64,000 nt of DNA from Patescibacteria group bacterium. GTDB taxonomy: Bacteria > Patescibacteriota > Minisyncoccia > UBA6257 > 1-14-0-10-40-38. The notes beneath the pieces were generated by a model, which saw nothing but the letters and a program-made list of their open reading frames with translations, was not told the DNA's origin and did no database searches. Below, in pieces: positions 13,017-55,061 of the stretch. Numbering within the stretch: position 1 is the first letter of the stretch; each line of letters begins with the position of its first letter. The translations under genes and the position numbers were made by a program. The stretch lies in assembly GCA_038064975.1 (NCBI GenBank), contig JBBTRX010000006.1:10994-74993 (forward strand). Direction: 5' to 3'.

Positions 13017-13733
13017 ATGCCGAGTTTTATAAAATTTACTATCGCAATTGAAATAGCAGTTATAGTGCTGGCGTATCCCGCGAGCGCCGCTATTCCTCCG
13101 AATATTCTTATACTAGAAAAATTCGCATCAGTTCCTATTGTTACACCTCTCTCCGTATCGGAAGATATATTAAATGACGAATTAGAAACTGTAATTGAGA
13201 ATGCACCGGAAATCACGACGAATGTGAACGTTGATGTGGAGCCAAAAAAAATAGTAGAACCGGAGAAACCGGCGCCAGCCCCAAAGAAAATCTTTTCTAT
13301 TGATCAAAGCCGTCTCATTATCCCTACCATTTCACTAGATAAGCCGATTGCTCCTGTTGGTCTTACCCCTGAAGGAGATATGGATGTATTGGATGATCCG
13401 AGTCGCGTAGGGTGGTTTAACGGCCGTGCCCTGCCGGGCGAAGTGGGAAGCGCGGTCATTGGTGCGCACGTGTACCAGGCATTCGCGAATTTAAAAAAAC
13501 TCAAAGTAGGGGATGAAATATATGTTAAGCAGGCAGACGGCTCACAACTGCGTTTTGAAGTAGAGGAAATTGCCGTGATCCCTTACACGGATACTACCCA
13601 TCTTCCAAAGATTTTTAATCGTACCGATGGATTGTATCTGAACCTTATTACCTGCCACGGCGAACCCGTTCCCGGTAAGTCTACATACACGCACCGCCTT
13701 GTCGTCTACACTAAACTCGTAGCAACGACGTAA
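13017..13733 (+). CDS. Sortase family transpeptidase (class E/F-like), N-terminal TM anchor
   Basis: Catalytic His (VIGAHV), the TLxTC motif (LITCHG) and a downstream Arg (HRLV). Long Pro/Lys-rich linker after the TM. Confidence 0.8.
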   Translation: MPSFIKFTIAIEIAVIVLAYPASAAIPPNILILEKFASVPIVTPLSVSEDILNDELETVIENAPEITTNVNVDVEPKKIVEPEKPAPAPKKIFSIDQSRLIIPTISLDKPIAPVGLTPEGDMDVLDDPSRVGWFNGRALPGEVGSAVIGAHVYQAFANLKKLKVGDEIYVKQADGSQLRFEVEEIAVIPYTDTTHLPKIFNRTDGLYLNLITCHGEPVPGKSTYTHRLVVYTKLVATT

Positions 13734-13745
13734 AGAAATCTTACA

Positions 13746-13783
13746 CAACATTCCAACATTCTGCAGAATGTTGGAATGTTGTA
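13746..13783. repeat. Perfect 38-bp palindrome (copy 2; contains the same 32-bp core as 11855-11886)
   Basis: ACAACATTCCAACATTCTGCAGAATGTTGGAATGTTGT, immediately after the sortase stop codon. Confidence 0.9.
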
Positions 13784-13878
13784 ATTACTTGATTAGAAAA
13801 TCCAATTGATCTTCTGGGACTCCGATTGACTTGCCGTGCTTGGCGACGGAGAATAAAAATCTCTAATGTTTCTTGGTT

Positions 13879-14958: not shown

Positions 14959-14959
14959 A

Positions 14960-15685: not shown

Positions 15686-15687
15686 AC

Positions 15688-17901: not shown

Positions 17902-18369
17902 ATGAGGAAAAACAAACCGATTCTTGTTTGGATTTTTCTTGTTGTTATCCTCGGCGTTGTTGTATTTTTCGCGTGGAAATTGATAAGTCCAAATCAGCGG
18001 AACGTTGCCGCATGGAAAAATGCAGACGTACGCTGCCTTTCAAATCGCGAACCGGTAAGCGGAGGGGATTATTCTGTACTACAAATTCTGGTGGACGGCT
18101 CACCAGAAGCTATTCCGGAACAAATCGGTGTAGCAAAGCGTTGCATGGCGGAACTTTATACGTCGGATATATCGGGAACAATCTATATTGATCCTGCGAC
18201 TCCGGAGAAAACATTTACGCTTGGTCAATTTTTTAAAATTTGGAGAGAGCCGATGGAACGCGAGGGATATAAAATGCATATGACGGTAAACGGACTTCCT
18301 AATACACAATTTGAAAATCTAGTTTTAGAAGACAAACAGCTTATTATTCTGGAATATGACCGAAAATAA
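17902..18369 (+). CDS. Membrane-anchored hypothetical protein at the head of the pilus locus
   Basis: N-terminal TM helix plus ~125-aa extracytoplasmic domain. Overlaps pilB by 14 nt (operon). Confidence 0.45.
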   Translation: MRKNKPILVWIFLVVILGVVVFFAWKLISPNQRNVAAWKNADVRCLSNREPVSGGDYSVLQILVDGSPEAIPEQIGVAKRCMAELYTSDISGTIYIDPATPEKTFTLGQFFKIWREPMEREGYKMHMTVNGLPNTQFENLVLEDKQLIILEYDRK

Positions 18370-20711: not shown

Positions 20712-20715
20712 AAAT

Positions 20716-20745
20716 AGAATAAGGAATAAAGAATAAGGAATTAAG
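20716..20745. repeat. Intergenic repeat family 2, inverted copy (GAATAAGGAATAAAGAATAAGGAAT)
   Basis: Reverse complement matches the CCTTATTCTTTATTCCTTAT core of 34212-34238. Confidence 0.5.
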
Positions 20746-20851
20746 AATGAAGCAAAAAATACAAATCCTTTATTCTTTATACTTGATTCTTTATACTCGT
20801 TTATTCTTGTGCACAACCCTTCGCACGGAAGGCGGGGTATAATAAGAAGTA

Positions 20852-22651: not shown

Positions 22652-22656
22652 ATGAT

Positions 22657-23328
22657 ATGAAGAAAAAAATATATAATGTTCGTCGCGTTTTGCTAAACCA
22701 CGACATCTTCGTCGCTCTTCGCTCCTCGAAAGGTTTTACGCTGATTGAGTTTTTGATTACATTTGCCGTCATTCTTGCGGTTGGTGGCGGCATTGTCGTA
22801 TTCCAGAGGGATTTATTTGTATTCAATTCATACATTGGAAAATCTCTTTCCATCGGACGGGATGCGGAGCGGGTGGTGCGTGATATCGTGAGAGAAGTTC
22901 GATCTGCTTCCCAATCTAGTATTGGGGCATATCCGATAGAAATTGCGAAAGACAATGAGTTTATTTTCTTTGCCAATATTGATAAAGGGGCAGAGCGCGA
23001 GAGAATTCATTACTATCTTTCCGGCGATGAACTAAAAAGGAGTATTATTTACCCCACCGGTCAGCCGCTTACTTACAGTACAACGACAGGAGCGCAGGAA
23101 AGTGTGCGGACGGTGCTTAGGAATATCATCTCAACTACCACTCCTATTTTTACGTACTATAATAATACCTATGCGGGTACGACGACACCGCTTACCCAAC
23201 CCGTTCCGGTATTAAACATTCGTGTCGTAGGTATCATGATTACTGTTGACGAAGTATTAAATCAACTTCCTCCTCCACTCTCATTTTCCAGTAAAGTTAC
23301 TATTAGAAATTTGAGAGATAATCCGTAA
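22657..23328 (+). CDS. Type IV pilin-like protein with unusually long (about 29 aa) leader
   Basis: SSKG|FTLIEFLITFAVILAV prepilin motif. ATG at 22657 follows the upstream TAA by 5 nt. A shorter TTG-initiated leader is possible. Confidence 0.7.
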   Translation: MKKKIYNVRRVLLNHDIFVALRSSKGFTLIEFLITFAVILAVGGGIVVFQRDLFVFNSYIGKSLSIGRDAERVVRDIVREVRSASQSSIGAYPIEIAKDNEFIFFANIDKGAERERIHYYLSGDELKRSIIYPTGQPLTYSTTTGAQESVRTVLRNIISTTTPIFTYYNNTYAGTTTPLTQPVPVLNIRVVGIMITVDEVLNQLPPPLSFSSKVTIRNLRDNP

Positions 23329-23382
23329 ACCATAACCATGTGTAGTTTCAAAAAAAACAAATTGACGACAAGGAGTGGACAG

Positions 23383-24804
23383 ATGCTTATCCACACCCTT
23401 CTTTTAATGACGCTTTCCGTTGCCTTTCTTACCGTACTTACGAATCTCGCGCTTACTAATATTACGGAAGTTACTCGATCGGTGCAGTCCGAGCAAGCAT
23501 TCCAAATCGCCGAGGCGGGAATTGAATATTATCGGTGGCATTTAGCGCATTCTCCAGAGGACTATACTAACGGTACCGGACTTCCCGGTCCATATGCTGT
23601 TGATTATTATAATCGTGAGGGAAATAAAATTGGGCAATTTATTTTAACTATTACAGCCCCTATTCTTGGTTCAACGGTTACAACAATACGCTCCACCGGC
23701 ATATTAGACGATGCGCCGGGAAGTGCGCGCACTATTGAAGCAAAGATGGGTATTGCATCATTTACAAAATTTGCTGTTGTGGCGAACGACACGATGTACT
23801 TTGGTGTGGGTACGGAAACCTTTGGACTTATTCACTCCAATGGAGGAATTCGTTTTGACGGACTTGCCCATAATTTAATCACGAGCGCCGTTGCGAGCTA
23901 TAACGATCCCGATCACTCGGGACAAGATGAATTTGGCGTTCATACGCATGTTTCGCCCGTTGATCCGCTTCCTCCAGCACAGGTTCCCGAACGACCAGAT
24001 GTCTTCATGGCGGGCAGGCAATTTCCAGTTCCAGCAATTGATTTTGACGGCATTATTGCAGATTTGGCGGAAATAAAATCCGATGCACAAGCAAATGGAA
24101 CTTATTTTCCGGATTCCGGCCAATCTGGTTATGACGTCATTGTAAAAACTAACGATACGTTTGATGTATATCGGGTAAACAGTATCGTTCCAAAACCACA
24201 AGGATGTTCTAACGTTGTAGCGGATAACGACTGGGACACGTGGAGCGTCAATACAAAGACATTTTTAGGTAATTATCCCTTTCCTGCAAACGGACTCATC
24301 TTTTTTGAAGATGATATTTGGGTAAGTGGGCAAATTGATTCCGCACGCATTACGATAGGCGCCGCGCGTTTCCCCGAAACTCCCGGACAGATTAAAAATA
24401 TCAATATCAATAATGATCTTCGGTACACGAATTACGACGGGACTGACGTTATTGGTCTTATCTCCCAAAACGATATCAACGTAGGGTTATATAGTGAAGA
24501 TGATTTACGTATTGACGGTGCTCTCATTTCTAAAAATGAGCGAATCGGGCGCCTGTATTACCGTGCTCCAACGGAAAATAATACCTATTGCGGGCCTGAA
24601 GCCCTGCGGGATACCGTGACCCTTTTTGGCATGTTGGCCACAAATGAACGCTATGGATTCAGCTGGACCTGTGGGGGAGTGTACTGCTCAGGATACGAAA
24701 CCCGTACCATTATTTACGATAATAATTTACTCTTCAGTCCGCCACCCGGATTTCCATTAACGTCTGACCAGTACGAAGTTTTCTCGTGGGAAGAGATCCG
24801 TTGA
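23383..24804 (+). CDS. PilX-like N-terminal domain protein (putative pilus-associated minor component)
   Basis: Start chosen at MLIHTLLL, which has AAGGAG 7 nt upstream. N-terminus (hydrophobic helix then SVQSEQAFQIAEAGIEYY) resembles the PilX_N pattern. Large Asn/Asp-rich C-terminal region. Confidence 0.5.
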   Translation: MLIHTLLLMTLSVAFLTVLTNLALTNITEVTRSVQSEQAFQIAEAGIEYYRWHLAHSPEDYTNGTGLPGPYAVDYYNREGNKIGQFILTITAPILGSTVTTIRSTGILDDAPGSARTIEAKMGIASFTKFAVVANDTMYFGVGTETFGLIHSNGGIRFDGLAHNLITSAVASYNDPDHSGQDEFGVHTHVSPVDPLPPAQVPERPDVFMAGRQFPVPAIDFDGIIADLAEIKSDAQANGTYFPDSGQSGYDVIVKTNDTFDVYRVNSIVPKPQGCSNVVADNDWDTWSVNTKTFLGNYPFPANGLIFFEDDIWVSGQIDSARITIGAARFPETPGQIKNININNDLRYTNYDGTDVIGLISQNDINVGLYSEDDLRIDGALISKNERIGRLYYRAPTENNTYCGPEALRDTVTLFGMLATNERYGFSWTCGGVYCSGYETRTIIYDNNLLFSPPPGFPLTSDQYEVFSWEEIR

Positions 24805-24931: not shown

Positions 24932-25558
24932 CTAGGAGGGCTTGCGAACGCCGGCAAACCACCAGTCGTCGTCCCAGTCGAGGTCGTCGCGGTTGACGAA
25001 CACCCCGCGCCCGTCGTGCCAACGGCCGAACGTGGCGTAGCACCAGTTGCCCTCGGCATCCTTCCAGTGAGTGCCGTGAGGCTTCTCATCCGCGAAGGCG
25101 GGGTCGGCTTCGTTCACGGCGGCGAGGGAGTAGGGGTCGGCGGGATTGAGGCCACGCAGATCGAACTCATGTGCAAGGTCGTCATCGGAGATGAAACCGT
25201 TGCGGTTTGAGAGGTCAGGTTTGAAGAACACAACCTCCACTTCATCGGCCGAGGCCTTAGGCATCGCATCCACGATCTTGCGGTACGTGTACTGCGCGCG
25301 ATGAGTGGCATCGAGCGCCTCTTGTGGAGAGCGGCTGCGATTCACGTTGACCGTACGGACGATGAGATTCGAGATCGCGTGAGTGCAATCGCGGAAGGGA
25401 GCGAACATCATCATTCCAAGATTCGGGATACCGAGAACGTGTTGAGCGACATCCGAGGTGATCTGGGAACGATGCTTGCGCATCGCGTCGCGAAGTTTGT
25501 TCACGGCATTTTCGATCTGGCCGTCAGTCATTTCGGTTGCGGTCATGATCTTCGTCAT
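24932..25558 (-). CDS. Hypothetical protein, strongly GC-rich (about 60-67% by eye); start taken at MTKIM, which has AAAGGA 7 nt upstream
   Basis: Long ORF in a sharply bounded high-GC block. Asp/Trp-rich C-terminus (DDLDWDDDWWFAG). No recognisable domain. Confidence 0.5.
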   Translation of the reverse strand: MTKIMTATEMTDGQIENAVNKLRDAMRKHRSQITSDVAQHVLGIPNLGMMMFAPFRDCTHAISNLIVRTVNVNRSRSPQEALDATHRAQYTYRKIVDAMPKASADEVEVVFFKPDLSNRNGFISDDDLAHEFDLRGLNPADPYSLAAVNEADPAFADEKPHGTHWKDAEGNWCYATFGRWHDGRGVFVNRDDLDWDDDWWFAGVRKPS

Positions 25559-25720
25559 GGCGTCATCCTTTCTTGTTTTCCGTCGGCTGGCGGATTTCCT
25601 CTGCGCCGAGGAGGCACTATGGTCCGATGTGGTCATAGCGAGGAGAGGCCTTTCACTAGGTAGGGAATAAGCCGCTTTTCGCTATGACCATCTAAATTCG
25701 TATCAAAGAGCTATGAACAT

Positions 25721-25838: not shown

Positions 25839-28676
25839 TTAATTCTTATAATACACTCGTTTCGTACTAAACTCTCGTGCGATGAAGAAGATTATCAAGA
25901 TAAGAAGAATGATGAGAAGAATCCATCCGAAGGGAATAGAGAGTCCAAAGATAGATGCAAGGAATCCTGAACCGCTGACCGTAAACGTGCGGTATGCGCT
26001 TGTGGATTGATCCTGATTGTTTGCGTCGCGATAATTCATAACAGCACCAGCAGTAAGCGTGTCGCCGGTTTCCATATTGTCTCTTACACGCAATGTAAGT
26101 CGTACGGAATTTTGATCCAGCGGATTAAGATTTCCAAGGTTAAAGGTTACAACGTTATTTGATTCAGAAGCTACCGAATTCGAAGATGAAATAAATTCCA
26201 ATCCATCGGAAAGCGTGATGCGGAGCATAAGACGAGATACCGCGTGACGATCACTGTCATTCCAATAGTTCAATGTGTAGATAATCGTTTCTCCCGGAGC
26301 CGGATTATTATTGTCAGCTGTTGGAGAAAGTACTATTGACGGAGAAATTTGAGAAACTGGAGTGGATGGTTTTGGAGGCGTTGTCGGTTGTGGCGGAACA
26401 AAGACGCTTCGCGTTTTAAAGCTCGTTATCGTTCCGTAGGATGTGCCAAAGTTATTTGTTGCGGTTACGCGATAATAGTAGGTAGTATTCGGCGAAAGGC
26501 TAGGAAGGAACCATGAGAAAGGAATTGATCCTTGTCCAAATCCAATATCGCGAGAAACAGTTGAATTGCCGAGCGATGGAGTCGTACCCCATTCAAAGCG
26601 TGCAGTCGTCTGCGATCCGCGAGGATCAACAGTGCTGTTTAACTGCGCGGAGATAGTTTCTACAAGTGAAGCGCCATTTGTGGAAACAAAGGGAATATTA
26701 CCCGATCCATTGAATCCCGATGAGGTATTAAATGAGAGGACAGAGCCGTATACGGTACCGAAACTATTCTGTGCAACAGCGCGGAAGTAGTACGTGGTAT
26801 TCTGTGAAAGATTAAAGAGGCTAGTGAAGTATGTTGAACCTCCAAATCCGCTTCCAATGAATTGCTGATTGGTTGTATTGCCGAGCGACTGCGAAGTGCC
26901 ATATTCAAACCATGCATTCATTTGCGATCCGTTCGGATTTGCGAATCCTTGAAGCGTTGCCGATGTTTGATTGATTGATGTTGCATTCAAGGTTGAAACA
27001 GTTGGGAAGTTGCCCTGCGAACCGCCGCTGCCAGATGTCGTAAATGAGAGGATACTGCCATAACTTGTGCTAAACGTGTTTTGTCCGACTGCACGGAAGT
27101 AGTAGGTAGTATTTGGAGCAAGATTTTGGATGGTGGATGAGAAATTCAAACTGGAATTTCCTGAACCGATACCCATGGATGCAGTTGAATTGCCGAGGAA
27201 TTGTGAAGTGCCGTATTCAAACCAGCCGCTCGTGAAAGCAGAGTTCGGATTTACGGATCCATGCAAGGTTGCGCTATTCGCACTAATATTGCTTGAAAAA
27301 ATCGTGTTCACAAATGGGCTGCCCGATCCGCCACCACCTCCGGTATTTCCACCTTGGGTAGTAAAGGAAAGAATGCTTCCAAATGTGGTCCCTGAAGAAT
27401 TCTGCGCGACAACGCGGAAGTAATAGGTAGTATTCTGTGAAAGATTAAAGAGTGAAGCACTTACATTAACGTTCCCATTTCCGTTGCCGACAGTCTGAGA
27501 ACCAACCGTGTTGCCAAGACTGAATGATGTGCCCCATTCAAATCGAACGTCAGTAAAGCCGCCATTTGGATTTACGGTACCGTTCAAAAGCGCACTGTTC
27601 TGTCCCACCCCGGAAGCGCTGTTCGTAGTTGCGGAAGGTGCCGATCCTGAAGATTGATTCGCCTGCGTAGTAAAGGAAAGGATGCTTCCTTGGGTTGTGC
27701 CGTAACTATTTGATCCGACGGCGCGGAAATAATAGGTCGTATTCGGAGAAAGATTTTGGATTGAGAACGAATAGTTTACGGATCCGTTGCCACTGCCTAC
27801 GTTTTGATTGCCTACGGTGTTGCCGAGCGACTGCGAAGTGCCATATTCAAACCATGCGTTGGTTGAGTTGCCGTTTGGATTTGCGGAACCCTGAAGTGTT
27901 GCGGATGTTTGTTCGATGCTATATGCAGAGAGGGTAGTAATGTTCGGTGCTGATCCGGACTGTCCTCCACCTTGAGTTGTAAAAGAAAGGATAGTTCCTT
28001 CACTTGCTCCAACATTAGACGCTCCGACCGCCCGGAAATAATACGTCGTGTTTGGGGAAAGATTATTAATAGATTTGGAAACGTTTACGAAGGAAGATCC
28101 GCTTCCTGCTGATTGCTGATTTGTTGCGTTTCCGAGTGATTGCGATGTACCCCACTCAAACCATACATCGGTATTTTTGCCTTCAGGGTTTACAGAAGCA
28201 TTTAAAGTTGCGGAAGTCTGACTTACATTAGTCGCTGGTTTTGTGATTACCGTTGGAAGGGAACCTGTAGGAGGATTGTCGGTCGTAGTGAAGCTGACTA
28301 TTGCTCCATAGCCGATGCCGAATGTATTTTTAGAAACTGCACGAACATAATAGGTAGTTCCCGCGGTAAGGCTTGATACTGATGCGGAAAAATCAGTACT
28401 TAACGATTTTGGATAACTTGTAATATTGTGTCCCGTTGAGAATGAATTAGAGGGCGTAAGGGAAGGGCTTGTGCCATATTCAAACCACGTAATGACATTT
28501 CCAGTAGAGGATTGCGTTTCGTGGCCAGAGAAAGTTGCGGATGTTTTGGTTACATTTTCAGCGGAAAATGTAGTGACGTCTGGTGCTGACGTTGCGGAAA
28601 CGGGGAACGCGAACGCAAGGGCTCCTATGAGTCCAAGTGCTATAAATACTGTATTTCTGGATAATTTTGCTGTCAT
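25839..28676 (-). CDS. Large secreted surface protein: signal peptide, about 8 tandem FN3-like repeats (~100 aa each), DUF11-like domain, conserved C-terminal GFLAS-TM-basic tail
   Basis: Repeats of ...WFEYGTSQSLGN...NLSPNTTYYFRAVG.N..G...GSILSFTTQ. C-terminus SGSGFLASIFGLSIP plus a 20-residue hydrophobic helix plus REFSTKR. The repeats are also visible as ~300-bp periodic near-identity at DNA level. Confidence 0.8.
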   Translation of the reverse strand: MTAKLSRNTVFIALGLIGALAFAFPVSATSAPDVTTFSAENVTKTSATFSGHETQSSTGNVITWFEYGTSPSLTPSNSFSTGHNITSYPKSLSTDFSASVSSLTAGTTYYVRAVSKNTFGIGYGAIVSFTTTDNPPTGSLPTVITKPATNVSQTSATLNASVNPEGKNTDVWFEWGTSQSLGNATNQQSAGSGSSFVNVSKSINNLSPNTTYYFRAVGASNVGASEGTILSFTTQGGGQSGSAPNITTLSAYSIEQTSATLQGSANPNGNSTNAWFEYGTSQSLGNTVGNQNVGSGNGSVNYSFSIQNLSPNTTYYFRAVGSNSYGTTQGSILSFTTQANQSSGSAPSATTNSASGVGQNSALLNGTVNPNGGFTDVRFEWGTSFSLGNTVGSQTVGNGNGNVNVSASLFNLSQNTTYYFRVVAQNSSGTTFGSILSFTTQGGNTGGGGGSGSPFVNTIFSSNISANSATLHGSVNPNSAFTSGWFEYGTSQFLGNSTASMGIGSGNSSLNFSSTIQNLAPNTTYYFRAVGQNTFSTSYGSILSFTTSGSGGSQGNFPTVSTLNATSINQTSATLQGFANPNGSQMNAWFEYGTSQSLGNTTNQQFIGSGFGGSTYFTSLFNLSQNTTYYFRAVAQNSFGTVYGSVLSFNTSSGFNGSGNIPFVSTNGASLVETISAQLNSTVDPRGSQTTARFEWGTTPSLGNSTVSRDIGFGQGSIPFSWFLPSLSPNTTYYYRVTATNNFGTSYGTITSFKTRSVFVPPQPTTPPKPSTPVSQISPSIVLSPTADNNNPAPGETIIYTLNYWNDSDRHAVSRLMLRITLSDGLEFISSSNSVASESNNVVTFNLGNLNPLDQNSVRLTLRVRDNMETGDTLTAGAVMNYRDANNQDQSTSAYRTFTVSGSGFLASIFGLSIPFGWILLIILLILIIFFIAREFSTKRVYYKN

Positions 28677-28919
28677 ACGGGTGTTTTTGATAATTTTACT
28701 TCATTAAGATGTGAATATTATGACGTTTAGGGCGTGATATTGTGACGCCTATAGTTCACAGATAATAGTAGATATATATGTATTTGTCAAGGGTAAGGGG
28801 TGGGAGGCATTGACAAATCCTCTATATTCGGATATTCTAATTCCCGGAAACTAGTGCATGGTGTCGGATCTACTGGCGTGCATAAGTTACTTGAAAACCA
28901 AGAAAGAAGGAGCTCTGTA

Positions 28920-30440
28920 ATGAGCATTTCTCGCTTGTATCTCTGCATGATGCTTCTCATCGCTTTCGCTTGTCATGGGGGAGGCGGCGATGAAATGCTC
29001 GCGAGTCCCAAAGCCAGTTTCGGTTTCAAAGGGCGCGGTGCTGACATTCTGAATGTCAGGATCGACAACCCCGACGTCAACGCGACTCACTACGCAAGGT
29101 GGTATCTCGGTTCAGGATTTGTTGTGGAGAACCCGGCTGTTCAAGAGGGTTTTCACCAAGAAGATCCTCAGCAGGAAGTTTTCTACCGCGCGCGATTCGC
29201 AATTCCTTTGGGAAGAATGGATCCCGGGAGTGACGGCATCGAAACTGGAGTAGTGATGGTGGAGATTGTCCGGAAAAAAAACGGCCAATCAGCATCATCG
29301 CCGCCTCAGGACTTTTTCATCTCCCAGTTTACGGGAGGGTTCGTGGAGCCTCCTGGCGGAGTTGCTCTTGCTGCGGTTAACGCAATGAGAGATTCTGTCG
29401 TTCGCGGTATTGCCGGGATGCAGAAACTCGACGAATTCGCGAAGGGGCAATTGGTCTTTGATAATCCGCTTCATGCGGCTGTCCAAGATCTGATCGCATT
29501 GGATACGCTTGCCAATCTGGTGGAGCGGGCAATGGGAGGTGAGGTAATCTTCCTCGGCTTCCATGGTTCTGAGCTGATTGTGCTGGATACGTTCAGTCTT
29601 TCACTCATGGACCGTCTCGTTGCTACTATGAACGGCGCTCTTGCGAACCAATTGGCTCCGAATTCGCCGCCACCGGATATCTCGTCCTTCGGAAGCTTCT
29701 ACCTCGTGATTGCTCATAACTTTGACGAGGATGCGGCAGACGCAATCAGAGTTGTCGGCGGTGCCGCAAGGTGCGGCTTGTCACTCTACGAAATCGCTCT
29801 CCAGGCAGACGGAAGTTCCGTTGCAAAGCTGGACGGTTCGACTCTGGGAGCGATTGCGTGGTTCAACACGTTCGCGACTGGATTCACTTCCGTTCTTATG
29901 CTGGATGCGCTTCCTGCGCATGCGGGAGTATCTCAAGGATCATTCGTGATCGTGATGGATGCTTCCGAAAGGATGGTTCCGTACGTGCATGACATTGCGA
30001 AATCTCATTTCGGTTCAGGGAACACGTTCTCTACGAAATACGGAGATGAGCTTTCGTCGGCGGGTGAGAAATCCGTCGCAGGTCTTCTTTCCAAGAAGGA
30101 CATCATTCTGGGTGTCCAAGGTGGATACGTAAACACCTCGGTACCCACAAACGGTTTGCCGCCTCCTGAATTCACTGTGGAGCTCAATGCAGATAAGGTA
30201 GGAGGTGAGTACAACACCAATGTCTCAACCGATCCAGCTACAGCCGGCCAAACTCTGGTAATCTTCATCCTCGGATCTGACGGGTTCGTCAGTGGTCAGG
30301 AGGTCGTTACCGATTCTTCGGGCGTTGCTGTCGCAGGGCCGTTCAATGGCACTGGCAACGGCTTCGACATCGTGACCGTGGTAAACCCCAACACTGGGGG
30401 ATTGGAATCCCAGGACGGCACGATCATCACCTTCCCGTGA
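28920..30440 (+). CDS. Putative lipoprotein, GC-rich (about 55% by eye), function unknown
   Basis: Start MSISRLYLCMMLLIAFAC has GAAGGAG 7 nt upstream and a lipobox-like LIAFAC. Terminator at 30477-30512. The long upstream extension in the ORF track is unlikely. Confidence 0.5.
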   Translation: MSISRLYLCMMLLIAFACHGGGGDEMLASPKASFGFKGRGADILNVRIDNPDVNATHYARWYLGSGFVVENPAVQEGFHQEDPQQEVFYRARFAIPLGRMDPGSDGIETGVVMVEIVRKKNGQSASSPPQDFFISQFTGGFVEPPGGVALAAVNAMRDSVVRGIAGMQKLDEFAKGQLVFDNPLHAAVQDLIALDTLANLVERAMGGEVIFLGFHGSELIVLDTFSLSLMDRLVATMNGALANQLAPNSPPPDISSFGSFYLVIAHNFDEDAADAIRVVGGAARCGLSLYEIALQADGSSVAKLDGSTLGAIAWFNTFATGFTSVLMLDALPAHAGVSQGSFVIVMDASERMVPYVHDIAKSHFGSGNTFSTKYGDELSSAGEKSVAGLLSKKDIILGVQGGYVNTSVPTNGLPPPEFTVELNADKVGGEYNTNVSTDPATAGQTLVIFILGSDGFVSGQEVVTDSSGVAVAGPFNGTGNGFDIVTVVNPNTGGLESQDGTIITFP

Positions 30441-31318: not shown

Positions 31319-31350
31319 GATCAACTGTCCACTCATCAACTTCTTTAACT
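31315..31350. repeat. Intergenic repeat family 1
   Basis: AACTGATCAACTGTCCACTCATCAACTTCTTTAACT, fused to the pilin 5' fragment. Confidence 0.7.
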
Positions 31351-32896
31351 AGTTGTTAGTCGTATCAAAAATACTTGTACTTCTGCCTTGGGGAGCTTGC
31401 GGAGCTTTTGGTTTGCGCCGTTCGTAAATTACGAACGAAAGGCCAAGAAGCGTTGCGAAGACAATTCCTCCTACAACAATGACTCGTTTTCTAGTAAAGG
31501 GATTCACTCCTCCTAGATCGCCAATTGTGAACGGAATCGGATCGCCAACGAGTTCGGGGACACCGTTTCGTATCGCATAAATTTTAACTAAATATTTTCC
31601 GTTGCCGAGGCGTTCCACAATAACCTGACGTGAAGCTGCATCTACAAAGAGACTTTTTTGAAGAATATTATTTTCGTCAAAAATATCAATTCGGTATCCG
31701 GTAATCCCATCGGTATTTTCCGGAGCTTCCCAGGAAATAGTAACCGTGCCGGTACCGTCCTCGTTGTCTTCGGTCGCAGCTGACTCTTCGCCAGATCCGG
31801 ATCCTGTAGGCGGTTCGTTATCTCCACCGGTTGGCGGAGGTTCGTTTCCGGAAGGAGGATTATTATTGTCTGGAGGAGGGGGTGGTGGCGGGGGAATAAA
31901 TGCACCACAGTTTGGATCTGTGAGATCAATCAGTCCATCACCATCATTATCTATATTGTCTGAGCAGAGAGCTTGCGTGTTTTCAACTCCTCCAGTTGGC
32001 GGAGGCGGAGGCGGAGGCGGAGGCGGCGGAGGCGGCGGTTCGTTGTCTCCACCGGTTGGCGGAGGAGTTCCGGACGAGGGGCTTTCAAATGTTCCTGAAA
32101 CATTTGTTTCGTTTCCCCAATTGTCTTTTGCAAATAGGATATAGGAATAGGTCTCATCAGGAATTACGGAGATCGTAAGTGTGCACGGAGTTTGTACGTA
32201 GGGGCAGACAGTGTAATTGCCGATGTACGCTGTACTTTGCGTTCCACTACCTTCCGGCCCGTACGTTACACGGTAATCCACAGGCTCATTCGCGGTAAAA
32301 GAAATTTTGACTGAATTCAATGAAAGTTCAGTTACCGTCGTCGTTCCAAGAATTGGGGGAGCGGTTTCATTTGTTTCATAGAGTCCATATTTAAACGCAA
32401 AACTTTGATCGTCTTGGCCTAAAAGCGCGGGCTCTACAGGGAAAAGAGTTGAAGCTCCTGCATTATGCGTAAGAATTTGGAATTGAGTTGAATAATGTAG
32501 TTGAAGATTCGGCATCGTCGTCACCATACGGATGCGATATTTTTTTGTGACGGTAATCGGAATTTGCGTGTCCAAATCTACATGGAATTTTGTTCCTCCA
32601 TATTTTTCCGCAATAGTAGGAATGGTAACTGTTTTTGAACTGAGGAGCGTATTTGCTTCGTCACGGATTCCAAATGTAGCAGTTCCGGATGATCCAGTAT
32701 TCGTGAGCCACACGTCAAAGCCGCTCAAAAAATCATTTGCTGCGTAGAATGGTTGGGCGGGCGTTTCTCCGAATGCGGCGAGCAGGCTTTCGTTGTCATC
32801 GGGAGCAAATTCAAAAAAGTTCGTGCCGTGCGCGAATGCAGTGCTTACGACAACAACTCCCAAAAAGATCGCGAGTAATCTATGGAGAAAGAGCAT
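31349..32896 (-). CDS. Secreted/anchored surface protein with poly-Pro linkers, Ca-binding-like DxDxDG loop and C-terminal TM anchor
   Basis: Signal peptide MLFLHRLLAIFLGVVVVSTAFA. PPPPPPPPPPPPPP and PPPPPPP runs. DNDGDGLIDLTD (EF-hand/dockerin-like). C-terminal hydrophobic helix plus ERRKPK. Confidence 0.6.
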   Translation of the reverse strand: MLFLHRLLAIFLGVVVVSTAFAHGTNFFEFAPDDNESLLAAFGETPAQPFYAANDFLSGFDVWLTNTGSSGTATFGIRDEANTLLSSKTVTIPTIAEKYGGTKFHVDLDTQIPITVTKKYRIRMVTTMPNLQLHYSTQFQILTHNAGASTLFPVEPALLGQDDQSFAFKYGLYETNETAPPILGTTTVTELSLNSVKISFTANEPVDYRVTYGPEGSGTQSTAYIGNYTVCPYVQTPCTLTISVIPDETYSYILFAKDNWGNETNVSGTFESPSSGTPPPTGGDNEPPPPPPPPPPPPPPTGGVENTQALCSDNIDNDGDGLIDLTDPNCGAFIPPPPPPPPDNNNPPSGNEPPPTGGDNEPPTGSGSGEESAATEDNEDGTGTVTISWEAPENTDGITGYRIDIFDENNILQKSLFVDAASRQVIVERLGNGKYLVKIYAIRNGVPELVGDPIPFTIGDLGGVNPFTRKRVIVVGGIVFATLLGLSFVIYERRKPKAPQAPQGRSTSIFDTTNN

Positions 32897-48944: not shown

Positions 48945-51155
48945 CTAAACTTGATTTTCAGTGCGTCTGAAGAAGAGAAGGAAAAGCGTTGCGAGAATGA
49001 TAAGCCAGACAATCCATCCGAAAAGCAGGCTTCCTGTGCCAAGTGTGAAAAGGCTGGAAAGTCTTCCTAGAAATCCATCCGCAATTCTTTCCTGACCTTC
49101 GTTTTCTTCGCTTATTCCGGCAAGAATTCCTTCATTTTCGTCATCTGCTCCACCTCCTGTACCGCTTGAATCATCACTACTTTGAGCAAGTACGCTTCTT
49201 ACTGGGATGAGATCAAACTGATTTCCTCCCACGCCAAAGGCGTTGTCTGCAGTGTTGATTTCAGTACCAGTACCAGTACCCGTACCCGAGCCATCTCCGT
49301 TATTTCCCGTTGGGGGAGGGACATTACCGCCACTGGACCCGCCTCCACCACCTCCGCCCCCGCCACCGCTAGATCCGCCCGATCCTCCATTTCCACCACT
49401 AGGAGGAGTGGAGTTATCAACTACAGTTACAAATAATCCGGTTTTTGAACTTCCAAAAACACAGTTTCCGGAAACGACGGTACAGGAATCAATACTTTCC
49501 GGTCCCCATGGGCCGGCTTCGTTCATTGCGCGGAGGATTTTGAGTGTAGTTCCTTCAAGAGTTGTATCAGAGATTGGCAGGCTTATCAGAAGTTCCGTAT
49601 TTGTAGTGAGCTCATCTGCTGAGAGTCCAAAACGGGCAGCAGATTTTGGCGCCATATCTTGAGGAATATTAGAGAGCGCGCTAGAGAGTACCTCGCTTAC
49701 GGCAATATCCATCATATTAAAATTCTCGCCGTTGGTTCTATCAAATCGAGTGAAAGCGGGAATTCCCACAAGGCCGAATGAGGTCCCCATCGGGAACATG
49801 ATTGTTGAAGCGTCGGGCACAAACGATGCGTAGGTGGTTGTTGAAACCCCGGAAAACGGAGCCATTTTAATTCCTAAAACATCGTAGAGTTTAATAACGC
49901 CAAAATTGCGATCAGTAAGAGTTGAGCCGCTCGTCGTAATTGTTTCAGAGAACGTATCGGGATTTGTCGGAGATATTTGTTTCCAGAGTGTGCTTGTATC
50001 ATTAATCGCGCCTTCCGAAGGAACTATAAGATCAAATACCCATGTGCCGAGTTTAAACGGATTAAAAGAAAATGAATATCGCCCATTTTCAGTAAGTTTA
50101 TTCACTTCCGTATCACCATAATACGCGATTACATTCCAACCCGAAATCGGGGATTCGGGATACTCTCCGTCAGTCTGCCAGACTCCATCTGCATTCAAGT
50201 CATACCATACCGCTCCGGATAGGGAGGCGTCAGCAAACGCTCCAAAATTCTTGTCAGTAATGTGCTCGTTTTCTCCGAGAGTAACTACATACACCGATCC
50301 GTTTCTCCGTTCCACGGAAGCGGTTATTTCAATTTGTTCAATAGATGTTGAAATAAAAGTGTCTTCTAATATCGACTGAAGGGCATTTTCTTCTGTTCCT
50401 AAAACGGACATTGCGGGTTGAGGTTCCGGAGTTGCTGGGGTTATTTGAGGAAACGTTTGAGTCCAAGCTTCATGGACTAAAACTTTTACTACATACGTCC
50501 CTGCTTCCAATGTATCAAAAAGGTAGTTGCCGGATTCATCACTGTCAGTCGTTTTAAGCGGAGCGTTTGTCGTTATGGGGGATGTGTATAACTCTACCGT
50601 CCAACCTGTGATTCCCGGTTCTTCCTCATCGCGCGTTCCATCGCCATCCATGTCTTCTATGATAGTTCCAGCGATAGATCCTCCCTGGATATTTGGCGAA
50701 ACCGACATCCCTCCTCCTACTGGGGCTCCATGTGTCCGTTCTATATCAGATACGGCAATACCTCCAGTTGCCGCATTATCCGTAGCGGTATTATTTTGGC
50801 AGATTTGCGCATCTCTTGTGCAGATCTCTCTAGAAACAATGTCATCTGTTCTTTCCGGAGTAGATATTGCGGCAACATCCGCAGTAATTTTACTACTTGC
50901 TTCTACCTGGGTATCCAGCAATACGGCAACGCCGGTACCTGGTTCAAGTATGGTGATTGCCGAATCGTTAGTTTCACTACGTTCTTCCGGTAATGTGGCA
51001 ACATCAACGGGTTGCCGAAATTCAATTGCCGTATTTTCAACTTCAGTTGCCGCATAGGTTATGGCAATTGCCGGATTGCCGATTGTTGTAATTAAAGTAA
51101 TCGCGGAGATAACGGCAAACAATTTATTTTTAATAGCGAGAGAGGATTTTGACAT
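48945..51155 (-). CDS. Large secreted surface protein with SdrD-B/Cna-B-like domains, Gly-rich linker and conserved C-terminal GFLG-TM-basic tail
   Basis: Signal peptide. DGDGTRDEEEPGITGWTVELY...SGNYLFDTLEAGTYVVKV (Cna-B-like). GGNGGSGGSSGGGGGGGGGSSGG. C-terminus DGFLGRLSSLFTLG plus hydrophobic helix plus RRTENQV. Confidence 0.65.
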   Translation of the reverse strand: MSKSSLAIKNKLFAVISAITLITTIGNPAIAITYAATEVENTAIEFRQPVDVATLPEERSETNDSAITILEPGTGVAVLLDTQVEASSKITADVAAISTPERTDDIVSREICTRDAQICQNNTATDNAATGGIAVSDIERTHGAPVGGGMSVSPNIQGGSIAGTIIEDMDGDGTRDEEEPGITGWTVELYTSPITTNAPLKTTDSDESGNYLFDTLEAGTYVVKVLVHEAWTQTFPQITPATPEPQPAMSVLGTEENALQSILEDTFISTSIEQIEITASVERRNGSVYVVTLGENEHITDKNFGAFADASLSGAVWYDLNADGVWQTDGEYPESPISGWNVIAYYGDTEVNKLTENGRYSFSFNPFKLGTWVFDLIVPSEGAINDTSTLWKQISPTNPDTFSETITTSGSTLTDRNFGVIKLYDVLGIKMAPFSGVSTTTYASFVPDASTIMFPMGTSFGLVGIPAFTRFDRTNGENFNMMDIAVSEVLSSALSNIPQDMAPKSAARFGLSADELTTNTELLISLPISDTTLEGTTLKILRAMNEAGPWGPESIDSCTVVSGNCVFGSSKTGLFVTVVDNSTPPSGGNGGSGGSSGGGGGGGGGGSSGGNVPPPTGNNGDGSGTGTGTGTEINTADNAFGVGGNQFDLIPVRSVLAQSSDDSSGTGGGADDENEGILAGISEENEGQERIADGFLGRLSSLFTLGTGSLLFGWIVWLIILATLFLLFFRRTENQV

Positions 51156-53741: not shown

Positions 53742-55061
53742 TTACGCCTTCGGAAATATCACCGGCTGTTTTGCTCTCTCCGATCTCTGCATAACGTAGA
53801 AAATTCCGAGAAGGACAAGAATAAAGAAGATAATAAGCCAAAGGGGAATATTCAAGCCTAAAATAGAAGCAAGGAATCCTTTGCCTTCTACAGTAAGCGT
53901 GAGCGAAGAGTTTACCGTATGTGAAAATCCGCGCGCATCCTGATAGGTCGCAATGGCTTTAAAGGGAAGTCTGTCGCCATCATCGGCATTGCGAGAAACT
54001 TGGAGTATGAGCACGATCTCGTGGGAATCATCCGGTGCAAGCGTGCCGATATCAAACGTAAGTTTATTTCCATTTTCTTCTGTAGGCATAGGACCGGCTT
54101 CCACGGCCGTCACATCGTCCGGCAACGTTACCACAATAGAGAGTTTGCGAAGTGATCGTGCACTATCCGTATTTTCATACGAGAGTACATATTCAATTCT
54201 GTCTCCTGGACGAGGGTTTTCTGTATCGGTTGCGGATTTAAGCGTAAGGGAAATAGGAAGTGGTGTTCCGTTAGAGACCGGAGTGACGGGCGTTGGACCG
54301 GAAGGAATTACGACAGGCGGAAGATATTGAAAACTGAAAATAGTTCCCTGTTGGATGCCGGCATTTGTTTGAGCGACTGCGCGGAAATAATATGTTCTTC
54401 CTGGAACAAGACCGCTAATAAATTGGCTGATGTATCGCACGCCGGAAACATCTCCAATATTTTGAAGTGGTGTAACATTGCCAAGGTTAGTTGTTTCTCC
54501 CCATGTAAACCAGGTAACGGTAGAATTGCCGTTTGTAATAACCCATCCGTTGAGTACTGCGTTGGTTGGGAGAATGTTCGTTGCAGGATAAGTCGTTACG
54601 GTTGCGAGCGTATTGGTAGTTCCTCCGCCAGCTGGCGGACTACCACCTCCGCCGGTAATTCCTCCGCTCGTAACTGGAGCACCCGTAGTAAATGAAGTGA
54701 TAGCTCCATACACGGTCCCAAAATCATTTTTTGCCGCTGAGCGGTAATAGTATGTAGTCTTTTCTTCAAGATTAAAAAGTGTATGGGCATATTGGAAACT
54801 ACCATCGCCTTTACCGGCATATTGGTATCCGGCTGAATGTTCTATTGCTTGGGTTTTTCCCCATTCAAACCACGCAGAAGTAGAGTTTCCGTTCGGGTTA
54901 ATGGATCCCACAAGGCGCGCAGAAGTCTCGCTCACATTAATAGGTGAGTTTGTTGATACATTTGGGGCCGATTGCTGGTCAGCAAAAGCTATATGTATAG
55001 GAGATCCAAAAAGAAGCGAAATAAGGCCGAAAATGGCTGCTTTCTTGAGTATTGTAATCAT
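53742..55061 (-). CDS. Secreted surface protein: signal peptide, FN3-like repeats, DUF11-like domain, conserved C-terminal GFLAS-TM-basic tail (paralog of the 945-aa protein)
   Basis: NLEEKTTYYYRSAAKNDFGTVYGAITSFTT and GRTYYFRAVAQTNAG. C-terminus GKGFLASILGLNIP plus hydrophobic helix plus RSERAK. Confidence 0.75.
   Translation of the reverse strand: MITILKKAAIFGLISLLFGSPIHIAFADQQSAPNVSTNSPINVSETSARLVGSINPNGNSTSAWFEWGKTQAIEHSAGYQYAGKGDGSFQYAHTLFNLEEKTTYYYRSAAKNDFGTVYGAITSFTTGAPVTSGGITGGGGSPPAGGGTTNTLATVTTYPATNILPTNAVLNGWVITNGNSTVTWFTWGETTNLGNVTPLQNIGDVSGVRYISQFISGLVPGRTYYFRAVAQTNAGIQQGTIFSFQYLPPVVIPSGPTPVTPVSNGTPLPISLTLKSATDTENPRPGDRIEYVLSYENTDSARSLRKLSIVVTLPDDVTAVEAGPMPTEENGNKLTFDIGTLAPDDSHEIVLILQVSRNADDGDRLPFKAIATYQDARGFSHTVNSSLTLTVEGKGFLASILGLNIPLWLIIFFILVLLGIFYVMQRSERAKQPVIFPKA

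What the first reader, a model, noticed from the sequence alone, without database searches (positions are those of the whole stretch)
25839..25990. Conserved C-terminal tail (G-F-L-[AG]-x-x-[IL] plus TM helix plus basic end) shared by three large surface proteins: candidate novel sorting signal
The 945-aa (25839-28676), 439-aa (53742-55061) and 736-aa (48945-51155) secreted proteins end with ..SGSGFLASIFGLSIP.., ..GKGFLASILGLNIP.. and ..ADGFLGRLSSLFTLG.. respectively. Each is followed by a ~20-residue hydrophobic helix and an Arg/Lys tail. That is the tripartite layout of sortase, exosortase and archaeosortase signals, but with a non-LPXTG, non-PEP, non-PGF motif. A sortase is encoded in the window (13017-13733), yet no LPXTG-type substrate is visible. 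The tail may be a lineage-specific anchoring or processing signal.
Basis: partly seen in the sequence, partly recalled or inferred. Interest (0 to 1): 0.6.

Follow-up and report, generated by a model that had tools for sequence, protein, structure and literature searches.

The report
Conserved membrane-anchor tail of Patescibacteria adhesins
Three secreted surface proteins of this ultra-small (Patescibacteria) bacterium end in a shared tail that is conserved across the lineage but matches no curated model; it most likely pins adhesin-like proteins to the cell membrane, and nothing links it to the nearby sortase.

Summary
P1 (25839-28676), P2 (53742-55061) and P3 (48945-51155), all on the minus strand, have a signal peptide and end in G-F-L-[AG]..., a hydrophobic helix and basic residues.

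The similarity is not just composition. A profile trained on 56 tails from other Patescibacteria proteins, with no window sequences, scores P1 at 31 bits and P2 at 17. P3 scores 10-14, its relatives 16-36. LPXTG, IPTL and MYXO-CTERM tails score at most 8.

The tail sits on two unrelated passengers: FN3-like repeats plus a DUF11/CLIPPER domain (P1, P2), and SdrD_B domains plus a low-complexity linker (P3 family). Homologues from other phyla carry MYXO-CTERM, T9SS, IPTL-CTERM or LPXTG signals at that position. No Pfam or NCBIfam model matches the window tails.

AlphaFold2 predicts a short juxtamembrane helix, a Gly/Pro/Asn break, then a transmembrane helix.

Three things argue against a cleaved sortase-type signal. 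No residue is invariant. The membrane helix is nearly as conserved as the folded domain. The cytoplasmic extension has a median of 18 residues. No sortase lies within 10 kb in the roughly 20 related loci examined.

Best reading: a lineage-specific permanent type I membrane anchor. Processing by an unknown enzyme is not excluded.

The parts
25839..28676 (-). P1: 945-aa secreted protein. Signal peptide, about 7 FN3-like (Pur_ac_phosph_N-type) repeats, one DUF11/CLIPPER domain, then the tail. Deposited as NCBI MEK7612212.1, 'hypothetical protein [Patescibacteria group bacterium]'.
26001..26330 (-). P1 DUF11/CLIPPER domain (residues 783-892), the membrane-proximal beta-sandwich.
   Evidence: Pfam PF01345, 30.2 bits. 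AF2 model with mean pLDDT 92. Foldseek match to the CLIPPER structure 9IFR, target TM-score 0.75.
25842..25976 (-). P1 tail module (residues 901-945): SGSGFLASIFGLSIPFGW, transmembrane helix, then REFSTKRVYYKN.
   Evidence: 31.1 bits against a tail profile trained without window sequences. AF2: helix 905-911, break 912-915, helix 916-939.
25923..25967 (-). P1 juxtamembrane motif G904-W918 (GFLASIFGLSIPFGW).
   Evidence: Pre-membrane profile 25.2 bits, 0 of 1000 shuffles reach it. Column statistics.
53742..55061 (-). P2: 439-aa paralogue of P1. Signal peptide, 2 FN3-like repeats, DUF11/CLIPPER domain (about 53985-54245), then the tail.
53745..53888 (-). P2 tail module (residues 392-439): EGKGFLASILGLNIPLW, transmembrane helix, then RSERAKQPVIFPKA.
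   Evidence: 16.9 bits. Pre-membrane profile 15.3 bits, 0 of 1000 shuffles reach it.
48945..51155 (-). P3: 736-aa secreted protein. SdrD_B domains, a conserved unnamed domain, a Gly/Pro-rich and acidic linker, then the tail. No DUF11 domain.
48948..49082 (-). P3 tail module (residues 692-736): ADGFLGRLSSLF, the insertion TLGTGS, LLFGW, transmembrane helix, then RRTENQV.
   Evidence: 9.6-14 bits. Not significant alone. Homologues P0233, P0179, P0176 and L022_12284-14569 score 16-36 bits, and GFL is invariant among the four aligned family members.
13017..13733 (+). Sortase-fold protein with an N-terminal membrane anchor. Considered as a partner; no link was found.
31349..32896 (-). [quoted passage not shown]
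   Evidence: (-3.3 bits)

Best explanation
The tail is a Patescibacteria-specific C-terminal membrane-anchor module used by adhesin-like surface proteins.

Proposed mechanism. The N-terminal signal peptide sends the protein through Sec. The C-terminal helix of about 16-22 hydrophobic residues acts as a stop-transfer anchor, and the Arg/Lys residues after it stay in the cytoplasm. The result is a type I membrane protein whose CLIPPER domain (P1, P2) or flexible linker (P3) sits next to the membrane. This suits a cell that is thought to lack an outer membrane.

The conserved stretch is G-[FL]-[LT]-A-[ST]-[IVL]-[FL]-x-x-[FL]..[LF]-G-[NGS]-W. It forms a short hydrophobic to amphipathic helix at the outer face of the membrane. 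A Gly, Pro or Asn break separates it from the membrane helix, which begins at an interfacial Trp. I infer that this element is kept in the mature protein. It may orient or brace the stalk, or dock to a membrane partner.

Shown: the architecture, the conservation, the modularity and the restriction to this lineage in the sample examined. Inferred: the topology, retention in the mature protein, and the role of the juxtamembrane helix.
For: 1. Architecture. All three proteins have a signal-like N-terminus, one C-terminal hydrophobic helix and basic residues after it.

2. Family. 63 of the 120 best P1 homologues carry the tail. Of the 13 tail-bearing hits whose source names an organism, 12 are Patescibacteria lineages (Paceibacterota, Wolfebacteria, Harrisonbacteria, Pacebacteria, Parcubacteria, Minisyncoccia) and one is an 'uncultured bacterium'. 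All 11 bacterial GTDB loci are Patescibacteria or unclassified-bacterium MAGs, and the archaeal DUF11 locus L013 has no tail.

3. Discrimination. The training tails score 19.5-79 bits. Six tail-bearing hits left out of training score 36-49 bits. LPXTG, IPTL, MYXO and other TM-plus-basic tails score 8 bits or less.

4. Modularity. The same tail follows a CLIPPER domain in the P1/P2 family and a low-complexity linker in the SdrD_B family.

5. Functional equivalence. Tails of non-Patescibacteria homologues reach curated cut-offs for MYXO-CTERM (36.9 and 22.1 against 20), T9SS Por_Secre_tail (46.6 and 43.7 against 23), IPTL-CTERM (39.3 and 31 against 20.5) and LPXTG (23.3 against 15.9).

6. Structure. 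AF2 predicts beta-sandwich, short helix, break, long helix in two subfamilies.

7. Signs of retention. In the close subfamily the pre-membrane helix is 72% conserved and the membrane helix 68%, against 78% for the folded domain, 56% for the linker and 36% for the distal tail. There are aromatic belts at both ends of the membrane helix: Trp in 44 of 58 tails at the start, and [YW]W..F[FY] before the basic residues. Cytoplasmic extensions have a median of 18 aa and reach 45 aa. 20 of 59 contain [DE][VI][LM], and inspection of the listed tails shows many of these form a VDVL[KR]-type motif.
Against: A plain stop-transfer anchor does not need a conserved extracytoplasmic motif. In the P3 family, G-F-L is invariant directly after a low-complexity linker that differs in length and aligns only through gaps. 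That is what a recognition site for some machinery would look like.

The three-part layout, the presence of several paralogues per genome, and replacement by genuine sorting signals in other phyla all fit a processed signal equally well.

For P1 and P2 the juxtamembrane segment is uniformly hydrophobic, not amphipathic (hydrophobic moment 0.05-0.11). The 'interfacial helix' picture therefore rests mainly on the other subfamilies and on AF2 regions of only moderate confidence (pLDDT 51-64 around the break).

There are no experimental data on the mature C-terminus.
Confidence: 0.55

Rival explanations
1. A true new protein-sorting or processing signal. A dedicated enzyme that is neither a sortase nor yet identified (for example a CPBP-type, exosortase-like or other membrane protease or transpeptidase) recognises the G-[FL]-x-A-[ST] element. 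It cleaves the protein there and releases it or re-attaches it to the envelope.
For: Three-part layout. Modular use on two unrelated passenger types. G-F-L is invariant directly after a low-complexity linker that aligns only through gaps. Three copies lie within 30 kb. Homologous passengers in other phyla end in MYXO-CTERM, T9SS, IPTL-CTERM or LPXTG signals at the same position. No curated model matches it.
Against: No residue is invariant across 58 tails; the best are Ala at 88% and Trp at 76%. The membrane helix is conserved almost as well as the folded domain. Many members have long cytoplasmic extensions, some with a recurrent motif, unlike known sorting signals, which sit at the extreme C-terminus. 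No candidate enzyme gene recurs next to tail proteins in about 20 loci, and none was found among the multi-pass membrane ORFs scanned with Pfam in the window.
Confidence: 0.2
2. A site for regulated shedding by a rhomboid-type or other intramembrane protease. Under this reading, [FL]-x-A-[ST] followed by [IVL]-[FL] supplies a bulky P4, a small P1 and a hydrophobic P2' residue, and the Gly/Pro residues downstream destabilise the helix. That matches the published rhomboid substrate pattern as I recall it, not as tested here.
For: Column pattern [LF]31 - x - A34 - [STA]35 - [LVI]36 - [FL]37, followed by Gly/Pro-rich positions before the membrane helix. AF2 predicts a break between the two helices.
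Against: The match is a pattern resemblance only. No rhomboid domain was found among the window's multi-pass membrane ORFs scanned with Pfam, and none appears in the annotated neighbourhoods. Thr is common at the putative P1 position, and several subfamilies do not fit the P4 rule.
Confidence: 0.08
3. A non-canonical sortase substrate. The sortase at 13017-13733 would cleave within the GFLAS or IPxGW region and attach the proteins to peptidoglycan.
For: A sortase-fold gene is present in the window, and no LPXTG-type substrate is visible there. About a third of the tails have a hydrophobic-Pro dipeptide just before the membrane helix, for example IPFGW, IPLGW and FPNTL. The substrates of Patescibacteria sortases are not defined in the papers I read.
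Against: The tails show no conserved Pro-x-Thr-Gly signature. LPXTG-family models do not match them, although they do match the LPNTG tail of a P3 homologue. No sortase lies within 10 kb of tail proteins in the related loci. Sortase is reported as patchy outside Microgenomates (PMC6744442), while the tail is common in Paceibacteria-type genomes. Cytoplasmic tails are long. The window sortase neighbours thiol-disulfide genes, not surface proteins.
Confidence: 0.05
4. Conservation by descent alone. The tail travels with the DUF11/CLIPPER domain as part of one protein family and has no role beyond being a hydrophobic anchor. The resemblance of P3 is coincidental.
For: P1 and P2 are paralogues (36% identity over the last 175 aa). 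All 63 tail-bearing P1 homologues have the tail directly after a DUF11-like last strand. P3's own pre-membrane match is not significant.
Against: The motif is 10 of 12 identical between P1 and P2, against 36% for the surrounding region. P3-family members without any DUF11 domain score 16-36 bits against a profile trained only on DUF11-type tails, while decoy tails score 8 or less. GFL is invariant directly after a low-complexity linker that aligns only through gaps.
Confidence: 0.1
5. Chance or purely compositional similarity of hydrophobic C-termini.
For: Transmembrane segments share composition. A tail-only profile gave no hit at E<=10 against 5.8 billion proteins because it is too short.
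Against: Shuffle tests give 0 of 1000 for P1, P2 and P0233. True tails and other TM-plus-basic tails separate cleanly. Position-specific conservation is clear.
Confidence: 0.02

Closest known systems
LPXTG-type sortase sorting signals (TIGR01167 and relatives)
   Same: C-terminal position on Sec-exported adhesin-like proteins. Layout of short motif, hydrophobic helix, then basic residues. Homologues of P3's SdrD_B passenger in other bacteria end in LPXTG or LAFTG signals.
   Different: No Pro-x-Thr-Gly signature and no model match. The conserved stretch is about 20 residues long and degenerate. The membrane helix itself is conserved. Cytoplasmic extensions have a median of 18 aa. No linkage to sortase was found.
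PGF-CTERM / archaeosortase, and PEP-CTERM, IPTL-CTERM and MYXO-CTERM / exosortase or myxosortase signals
   Same: Lineage-specific C-terminal three-part domains on many paralogous surface proteins. The Gly-Phe at the start of the window-type motif recalls P-G-F (from memory). Homologues of P1's passenger carry MYXO-CTERM and IPTL-CTERM.
   Different: No model match. No Pro before G-F. In the largest subfamily Phe is replaced by Leu. No exosortase, archaeosortase or CPBP-like multi-pass protein was found among the window ORFs scanned.
Simple type I (stop-transfer) C-terminal membrane anchors. Examples are the C-terminal transmembrane helices reported for the Patescibacteria Pam pilus chaperones and PamR (bioRxiv 10.64898/2026.03.03.709456), and beta-sandwich-plus-TM proteins such as the TRAP subunits and integrin alpha chains returned by Foldseek.
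   Same: Signal peptide, extracellular beta-sandwich domains, one C-terminal transmembrane helix, positive-inside residues. Retained anchoring in a cell without an outer membrane.
   Different: This tail has a family-wide conserved juxtamembrane motif. It is shared by unrelated passengers and is not described in Pfam or NCBIfam.
DUF11/CLIPPER-containing fibrillar adhesins (PMC12617251)
   Same: P1 and P2 carry a CLIPPER (CnaA-like) domain as the last folded domain before the anchor, like the stalk domains of fibrillar adhesins.
   Different: There is one CLIPPER domain, not tandem arrays. Anchoring is by this tail, not by LPXTG, OmpA-like or T9SS modules. That paper's main text contains neither 'Patescibacteria' nor 'transmembrane'.

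Membership tests
Sortase (LPXTG-type) sorting signal | Pentapeptide LPXTG or a close variant (Pro at position 2, Thr/Ala at 4, Gly/Asn/Ala at 5) directly before the hydrophobic segment | tested here: not met
   The regular-expression scan of all window ORFs found none. The tails read GFLASIFGLSIPFGW, GFLASILGLNIPLW and GFLGRLSSLF... Across 58 tails no Pro, Thr or Gly signature column exists.
Sortase (LPXTG-type) sorting signal | Match to curated LPXTG-family HMMs (TIGR01167, LAXTG, NPXTG and others) | tested here: not met
   No relevant hit at E<=10. The only one is LAXTG_small_WW at 13.8 bits against a cut-off of 65, over the membrane helix of P2. Positive control: the LPNTG tail of P0132 scores 23.3 against 15.9.
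Sortase (LPXTG-type) sorting signal | Hydrophobic helix followed by a short, mostly basic tail at the extreme C-terminus | tested here: inconclusive
   The helix and the Arg/Lys residues are present. However, cytoplasmic extensions are 7-14 aa in the window and have a median of 18 aa (up to 45) across the family, some with an acidic motif.
Sortase (LPXTG-type) sorting signal | Co-occurrence with a sortase gene across genomes | not testable with these tools
   A sortase is present in this window. None lies within 10 kb in the related loci. Whole genomes could not be read. The scan for relatives of the sortase found none.
Exosortase / archaeosortase / myxosortase / rhombosortase signals (PEP-, PGF-, IPTL-, MYXO-, GlyGly-CTERM) | Match to the curated C-terminal domain model | tested here: not met
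   No hit at E<=10 for the three tails. The same library detects MYXO-CTERM, IPTL-CTERM and the T9SS tail in non-Patescibacteria homologues.
Exosortase / archaeosortase / myxosortase / rhombosortase signals (PEP-, PGF-, IPTL-, MYXO-, GlyGly-CTERM) | Cognate multi-pass membrane enzyme encoded in the genome | tested here: inconclusive
   None was found among the multi-pass membrane ORFs of the 64-kb window that were scanned with Pfam; a few small ones were not scanned. None appears in the annotated neighbourhoods. The rest of the genome was not visible.
Type I stop-transfer membrane anchor | N-terminal signal peptide, a single C-terminal transmembrane helix, positive charges on the cytoplasmic side | tested here: met
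   Hydropathy and sequences. AF2 predicts a transmembrane helix of 20-24 residues. Arg/Lys is in the first position after the helix in 52 of 58 tails.
Rhomboid substrate | Small P1 residue, bulky hydrophobic P4 and P2' residues, helix-destabilising residues in the upper membrane helix (published motif, recalled from memory) | tested here: inconclusive
   The column pattern [LF]-x-A-[STA]-[LVI]-[FL] followed by Gly/Pro fits loosely. There are no cleavage data, and no rhomboid was found in the window ORFs scanned.
Patescibacteria GFL/AS-type tail (family defined here) | Score of 15 bits or more against the 46-position tail profile trained on non-window sequences, located at the C-terminus | tested here: met
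   P1 scores 31.1 and P2 16.9. P3 scores only 9.6-14, but its homologues score 16-36.5. Decoy tails score 8 or less.

The most novel reading that the evidence does not exclude
The tail is the recognition domain of a previously unrecognised, Patescibacteria-specific protein-sorting system. An unidentified membrane enzyme would cleave at the [FL]-x-A-[ST] element and release or covalently re-anchor a whole class of adhesin-like surface proteins. That would make it the counterpart in these bacteria of the LPXTG/sortase, PEP-CTERM/exosortase and MYXO-CTERM/myxosortase systems.
Probability: 0.2. Interest if true: 0.75.

Novelty: new variant of a known kind. Interest (0 to 1): 0.42.

Why it matters
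Patescibacteria make up a large share of bacterial diversity. The cultivated members live attached to other cells, yet how their surface proteins are held on an envelope thought to lack an outer membrane is largely unknown.

A recognisable C-terminal module shared by unrelated adhesin-like proteins would give a simple sequence handle for listing the surface proteome of these organisms. It would also mark where the membrane-proximal end of each adhesin lies.

If the tail turns out to be processed, it would point to a new sorting enzyme in a lineage with very few known envelope-assembly components. If it is a retained anchor, the conserved juxtamembrane helix and the cytoplasmic VDVL[KR] motif suggest contacts with partners on both sides of the membrane. 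Either outcome can be tested.

Tried and rejected
- Word-indexed homologue search with the last 184 aa of P1: no hit at E<=0.001. Full-length P1 worked.
- Tail-only profile A1 (42 tails) against 5.8 billion proteins: nothing at E<=10, because about 45 positions carry too little information at that database size. I therefore used local profiles on small sets, where 15-30 bits are meaningful.
- Sortase as query in genome contigs: 158 pattern matches, none a relative. The sortase neighbourhood test could not be done.
- The closer subfamily alignment A3 gave only 12 GTDB loci. Their flanks hold no second tail protein, no sortase and no LPXTG-like ORF.
- Full HMMER search with P3 was dominated by giant multi-repeat SdrD_B proteins. 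Only 3 of 150 hits were true full-length relatives.
- The metagenome scan with the P3 family gave 5 loci, which mostly re-found the same proteins.
- PGF-CTERM resemblance (G-F): rejected. No Pro, no model hit, and Phe is not conserved in the main subfamily.
- 'Amphipathic interfacial helix' as a general description: only partly upheld. The hydrophobic moment is about 0.3-0.36 in other subfamilies but 0.05-0.11 in P1 and P2.
- Literature searches found no description of this tail and no defined substrates for Patescibacteria sortases (papers read).


Full report
**Observation**

The three minus-strand ORFs are as described. P1 is 25839-28676 (945 aa), P2 is 53742-55061 (439 aa) and P3 is 48945-51155 (736 aa). 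Each starts with a hydrophobic, signal-peptide-like segment. Each ends with the quoted G-F-L-[AG] stretch, a single hydrophobic helix and Arg/Lys residues. The range given in the finding, 25839-25990, covers the last 50 codons and the stop codon of P1.

Exact look-up shows the proteins are deposited as hypothetical or 'SdrD B-like' proteins of a 'Patescibacteria group bacterium' MAG, on a 155-kb contig. The sortase ORF at 13017-13733 matches Pfam Sortase. It matches NCBIfam class F sortase only weakly, at 86.8 bits against a cut-off of 166. No window ORF of 60 aa or more has an LPXTG-like motif followed by a hydrophobic stretch.

**What the proteins are**

P1 and P2 have FN3-like (Pur_ac_phosph_N-type) repeats followed by one DUF11 domain. 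DUF11 is now called CLIPPER, a CnaA-like isopeptide stalk domain of fibrillar adhesins (PMC12617251). An AlphaFold2 model of P1's last 175 residues has a mean pLDDT of 92. Its beta-sandwich matches the CLIPPER crystal structure 9IFR (target TM-score 0.75) and Gram-positive pilins.

P3 has SdrD_B domains, a conserved unnamed domain and a long Gly/Pro-rich and acidic linker. It has no DUF11 domain.

**Is the shared tail real?**

Among the 120 best homologues of P1, 63 end in a related tail directly after the last DUF11 strand ('SAYLTxxV'). Of the 13 tail-bearing hits whose source names an organism, 12 are Patescibacteria lineages: Paceibacterota, Wolfebacteria, Harrisonbacteria, Pacebacteria, Parcubacteria and Minisyncoccia. 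The other is labelled 'uncultured bacterium'.

Column statistics over 58 distinct tails give this pattern:
- [LF]-x-A (51 of 58)-[STA]-[LVI]-[FL]-[DG]-x-[FL]
- then L-[FL]-G-[NGS]-W (W in 44 of 58)-[LI]-[FL]
- then about 16-22 hydrophobic residues
- then an aromatic cluster and [RK][KR]

I built a 46-position profile from 56 tails with no window sequences. It scores P1 at 31.1 bits and P2 at 16.9 bits. P3 scores 9.6 bits within the full-length ORF and 14.0 bits when only its last 90 residues are searched. All other window ORFs score 4 bits or less. Six tail-bearing homologues left out of training score 36-49 bits. IPTL-type, MYXO-type and LPXTG-type tails, which also have a membrane helix and basic residues, score 8 bits or less.

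A profile of the pre-membrane positions alone gives P1 25.2 bits and P2 15.3 bits, and 0 of 1000 shuffles reach either value. So the similarity is position-specific, not compositional.

**P3 is the weak member**

P3's pre-membrane segment alone is not significant (5.9 bits; 126 of 1000 shuffles reach it). A six-residue insertion, TLGTGS, interrupts the motif.

Its true full-length relatives connect it to the family. They were found by an exhaustive HMMER search, a metagenome scan and a neighbourhood look-up:
- P0233 ends ..ETGFLANLLDMFGFGGWMFWLLLIILALIIWYWLRRRNRRN and scores 36.5 bits on the tail and 19.6 on the pre-membrane part (0 of 1000 shuffles).
- P0179 scores 24 bits, P0176 scores 23, and the L022 orthologue scores 16.

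In the four-sequence P3-family alignment, G-F-L, two further Gly residues and the Arg-Arg pair are invariant in the tail. They follow a low-complexity linker that differs in length between members and aligns only through gaps. The tail therefore occurs on two unrelated passenger architectures.

**Comparison with known signals**

The three tails match no Pfam or NCBIfam sorting-domain model even at E<=10. The same search serves as a positive control on homologues from other phyla:

| Signal | Scores (bits) | Cut-off (bits) |
|---|---|---|
| MYXO-CTERM | 36.9, 22.1 | 20 |
| T9SS Por_Secre_tail | 46.6, 43.7 | 23 |
| IPTL-CTERM | 39.3, 31 | 20.5 |
| LPXTG anchor | 23.3 | 15.9 |

So in other phyla both passenger types end in established sorting signals at the position where Patescibacteria have this tail. 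That supports a role in surface retention.

**Structure**

AlphaFold2 predicts the same arrangement in two subfamilies. In P1 a short helix (FLASIFG, residues 905-911) is followed by a break at LSIP and then a long helix (residues 916-939). In the 'NWLFDLLL' subfamily a ten-residue helix is followed by a break at the Asn before the interfacial Trp and then a 20-residue helix. Confidence around the break is only moderate (pLDDT 51-64).

The short helix is moderately amphipathic in most subfamilies (hydrophobic moment about 0.3-0.36). In P1 and P2 it is uniformly hydrophobic (0.05-0.11).

**Anchor or processed signal?**

Features that favour a retained anchor:
- No residue is invariant across the family.
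- In the close subfamily the pre-membrane helix is 72% conserved and the membrane helix 68%. The folded domain is 78%, the linker 56% and the distal tail 36%.
- Cytoplasmic extensions have a median of 18 residues and reach 45. In 20 of 59 tails they contain [DE][VI][LM], and inspection of the listed tails shows many of these form an acidic VDVL[KR]-type motif. Known sorting signals end within a few residues of the membrane helix.

Features that favour recognition by some machinery:
- The tail is modular.
- G-F-L is invariant directly after a low-complexity linker.
- Several copies occur per genome.
- The tail stands where other phyla have true sorting signals.

I rate the retained-anchor reading at 0.55 and an unknown-enzyme sorting signal at 0.20.

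**The sortase link**

The sortase link is not supported. The tails lack a Pro/Thr/Gly signature. The sortase is 12 kb from P1 and sits beside a thiol-disulfide cluster: Redoxin/Thioredoxin_10, DsbD_2 and thioredoxin. No sortase homologue lies within 10 kb of a tail protein in the related loci examined.

A published survey reports sortase as near-ubiquitous in Microgenomates but patchy in other groups (PMC6744442). The papers I read do not define the substrates of Patescibacteria sortases. Genome-wide co-occurrence could not be tested with these tools, and the scan for relatives of the sortase found none.

**Surroundings**

No rhomboid, CPBP or exosortase-like protein was found among the window's multi-pass membrane ORFs scanned with Pfam. 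P2 and P3 are interleaved with two ECF sigma factors and a DUF5667 membrane protein. The same P2-type then P3-type order recurs on a related groundwater contig, L018. A fourth C-terminally anchored FN3 protein (31349-32896) lacks the motif, so the tail is not universal among such proteins in this genome.

**Verdict**

The tail is a lineage-specific C-terminal module that neither Pfam nor NCBIfam describes. It is best read as a conserved type I membrane anchor with a structured juxtamembrane element, which makes it a new variant of a known kind. The more novel reading, a new sorting system, remains open at about 0.2.

Noticed in passing
window 48302-53446 (minus strand); also L001 and L018: P2 and P3 are interleaved with regulators. 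The order is P2, ECF sigma factor (52949-53446), DUF5667 membrane protein (51734-52936, a possible anti-sigma factor), P3, second ECF sigma factor (48302-48850). The P2-type then P3-type order recurs on a related groundwater contig, which suggests regulated expression of these surface proteins.
   Followed up: partly
window 18356-24804 (+): A type IV pilus cluster: T2SSE ATPase, T2SSF platform protein, a 599-aa and a 237-aa protein with N-terminal methylation (pilin) motifs, and a 488-aa ORF with no Pfam match. The 599-aa protein also carries CarboxypepD_reg/SpaA-like domains. The cluster ends about 1 kb from the 3' end of P1, and the two are convergent.
   Followed up: no
window 13017-16305: The sortase lies next to an opposite-strand thiol-disulfide cluster: Redoxin + Thioredoxin_10 (13879-14958), a DsbD_2 membrane protein (14960-15685) and a membrane-anchored thioredoxin (15688-16305). 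This recalls the disulfide-forming machinery linked to sortase-dependent pilus assembly that is cited in PMC6744442.
   Followed up: no
window 35742-37013 (+): An S41 C-terminal processing peptidase with a PDZ domain (CtpA/Prc-like). It acts on C-termini by definition, so it is a formal candidate for tail processing. Nothing links it to the tail.
   Followed up: no
homologues P0005, P0010, P0017, P0020, P0023, P0025, P0030, P0083 and others (cytoplasmic ends): In the 'NWLFDLLL' tail subfamily, the cytoplasmic extension after the membrane helix often carries a conserved acidic motif, ..[DE]x-V-D-V-L-[KR]-[AT].. . 20 of 59 tails contain [DE][VI][LM]. This hints at a cytoplasmic binding partner.
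   Followed up: partly
L014 12571-13152 and L023 12877-13458: A YkuD-type L,D-transpeptidase gene lies directly downstream of the tail-bearing protein on two closely related Wolfebacteria-like contigs. L,D-transpeptidases can couple proteins to peptidoglycan in other bacteria. This was seen in one synteny group only.
   Followed up: no
window 48999-49016 (P3 residues 714-719, approximately); P0176, P0179, L022_12284-14569: The P3 family carries a conserved six-residue insertion, T-L-G-T-G-[NS], between the GFL helix and the G-W start of the membrane helix. P0233 lacks it. The insertion is why P3 scores poorly against the general tail profile.
   Followed up: yes
window 28800-30440 (+) and 24932-25636 (-): The two ORFs flanking P1 (546 aa and 234 aa) have no significant Pfam match. 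The 546-aa protein has a lipoprotein-like or signal-like N-terminus and no C-terminal anchor.
   Followed up: no
P0111 (Parcubacteria Gr01-1014_29) C-terminus: It ends ..ETGALASVASALGESGWTAAAFPSVLLAVLSFFHVRIRAREKK. This looks like a diverged tail (LAS..GW) but scores only 3.4 bits, so the current profile probably misses distant variants.
   Followed up: no
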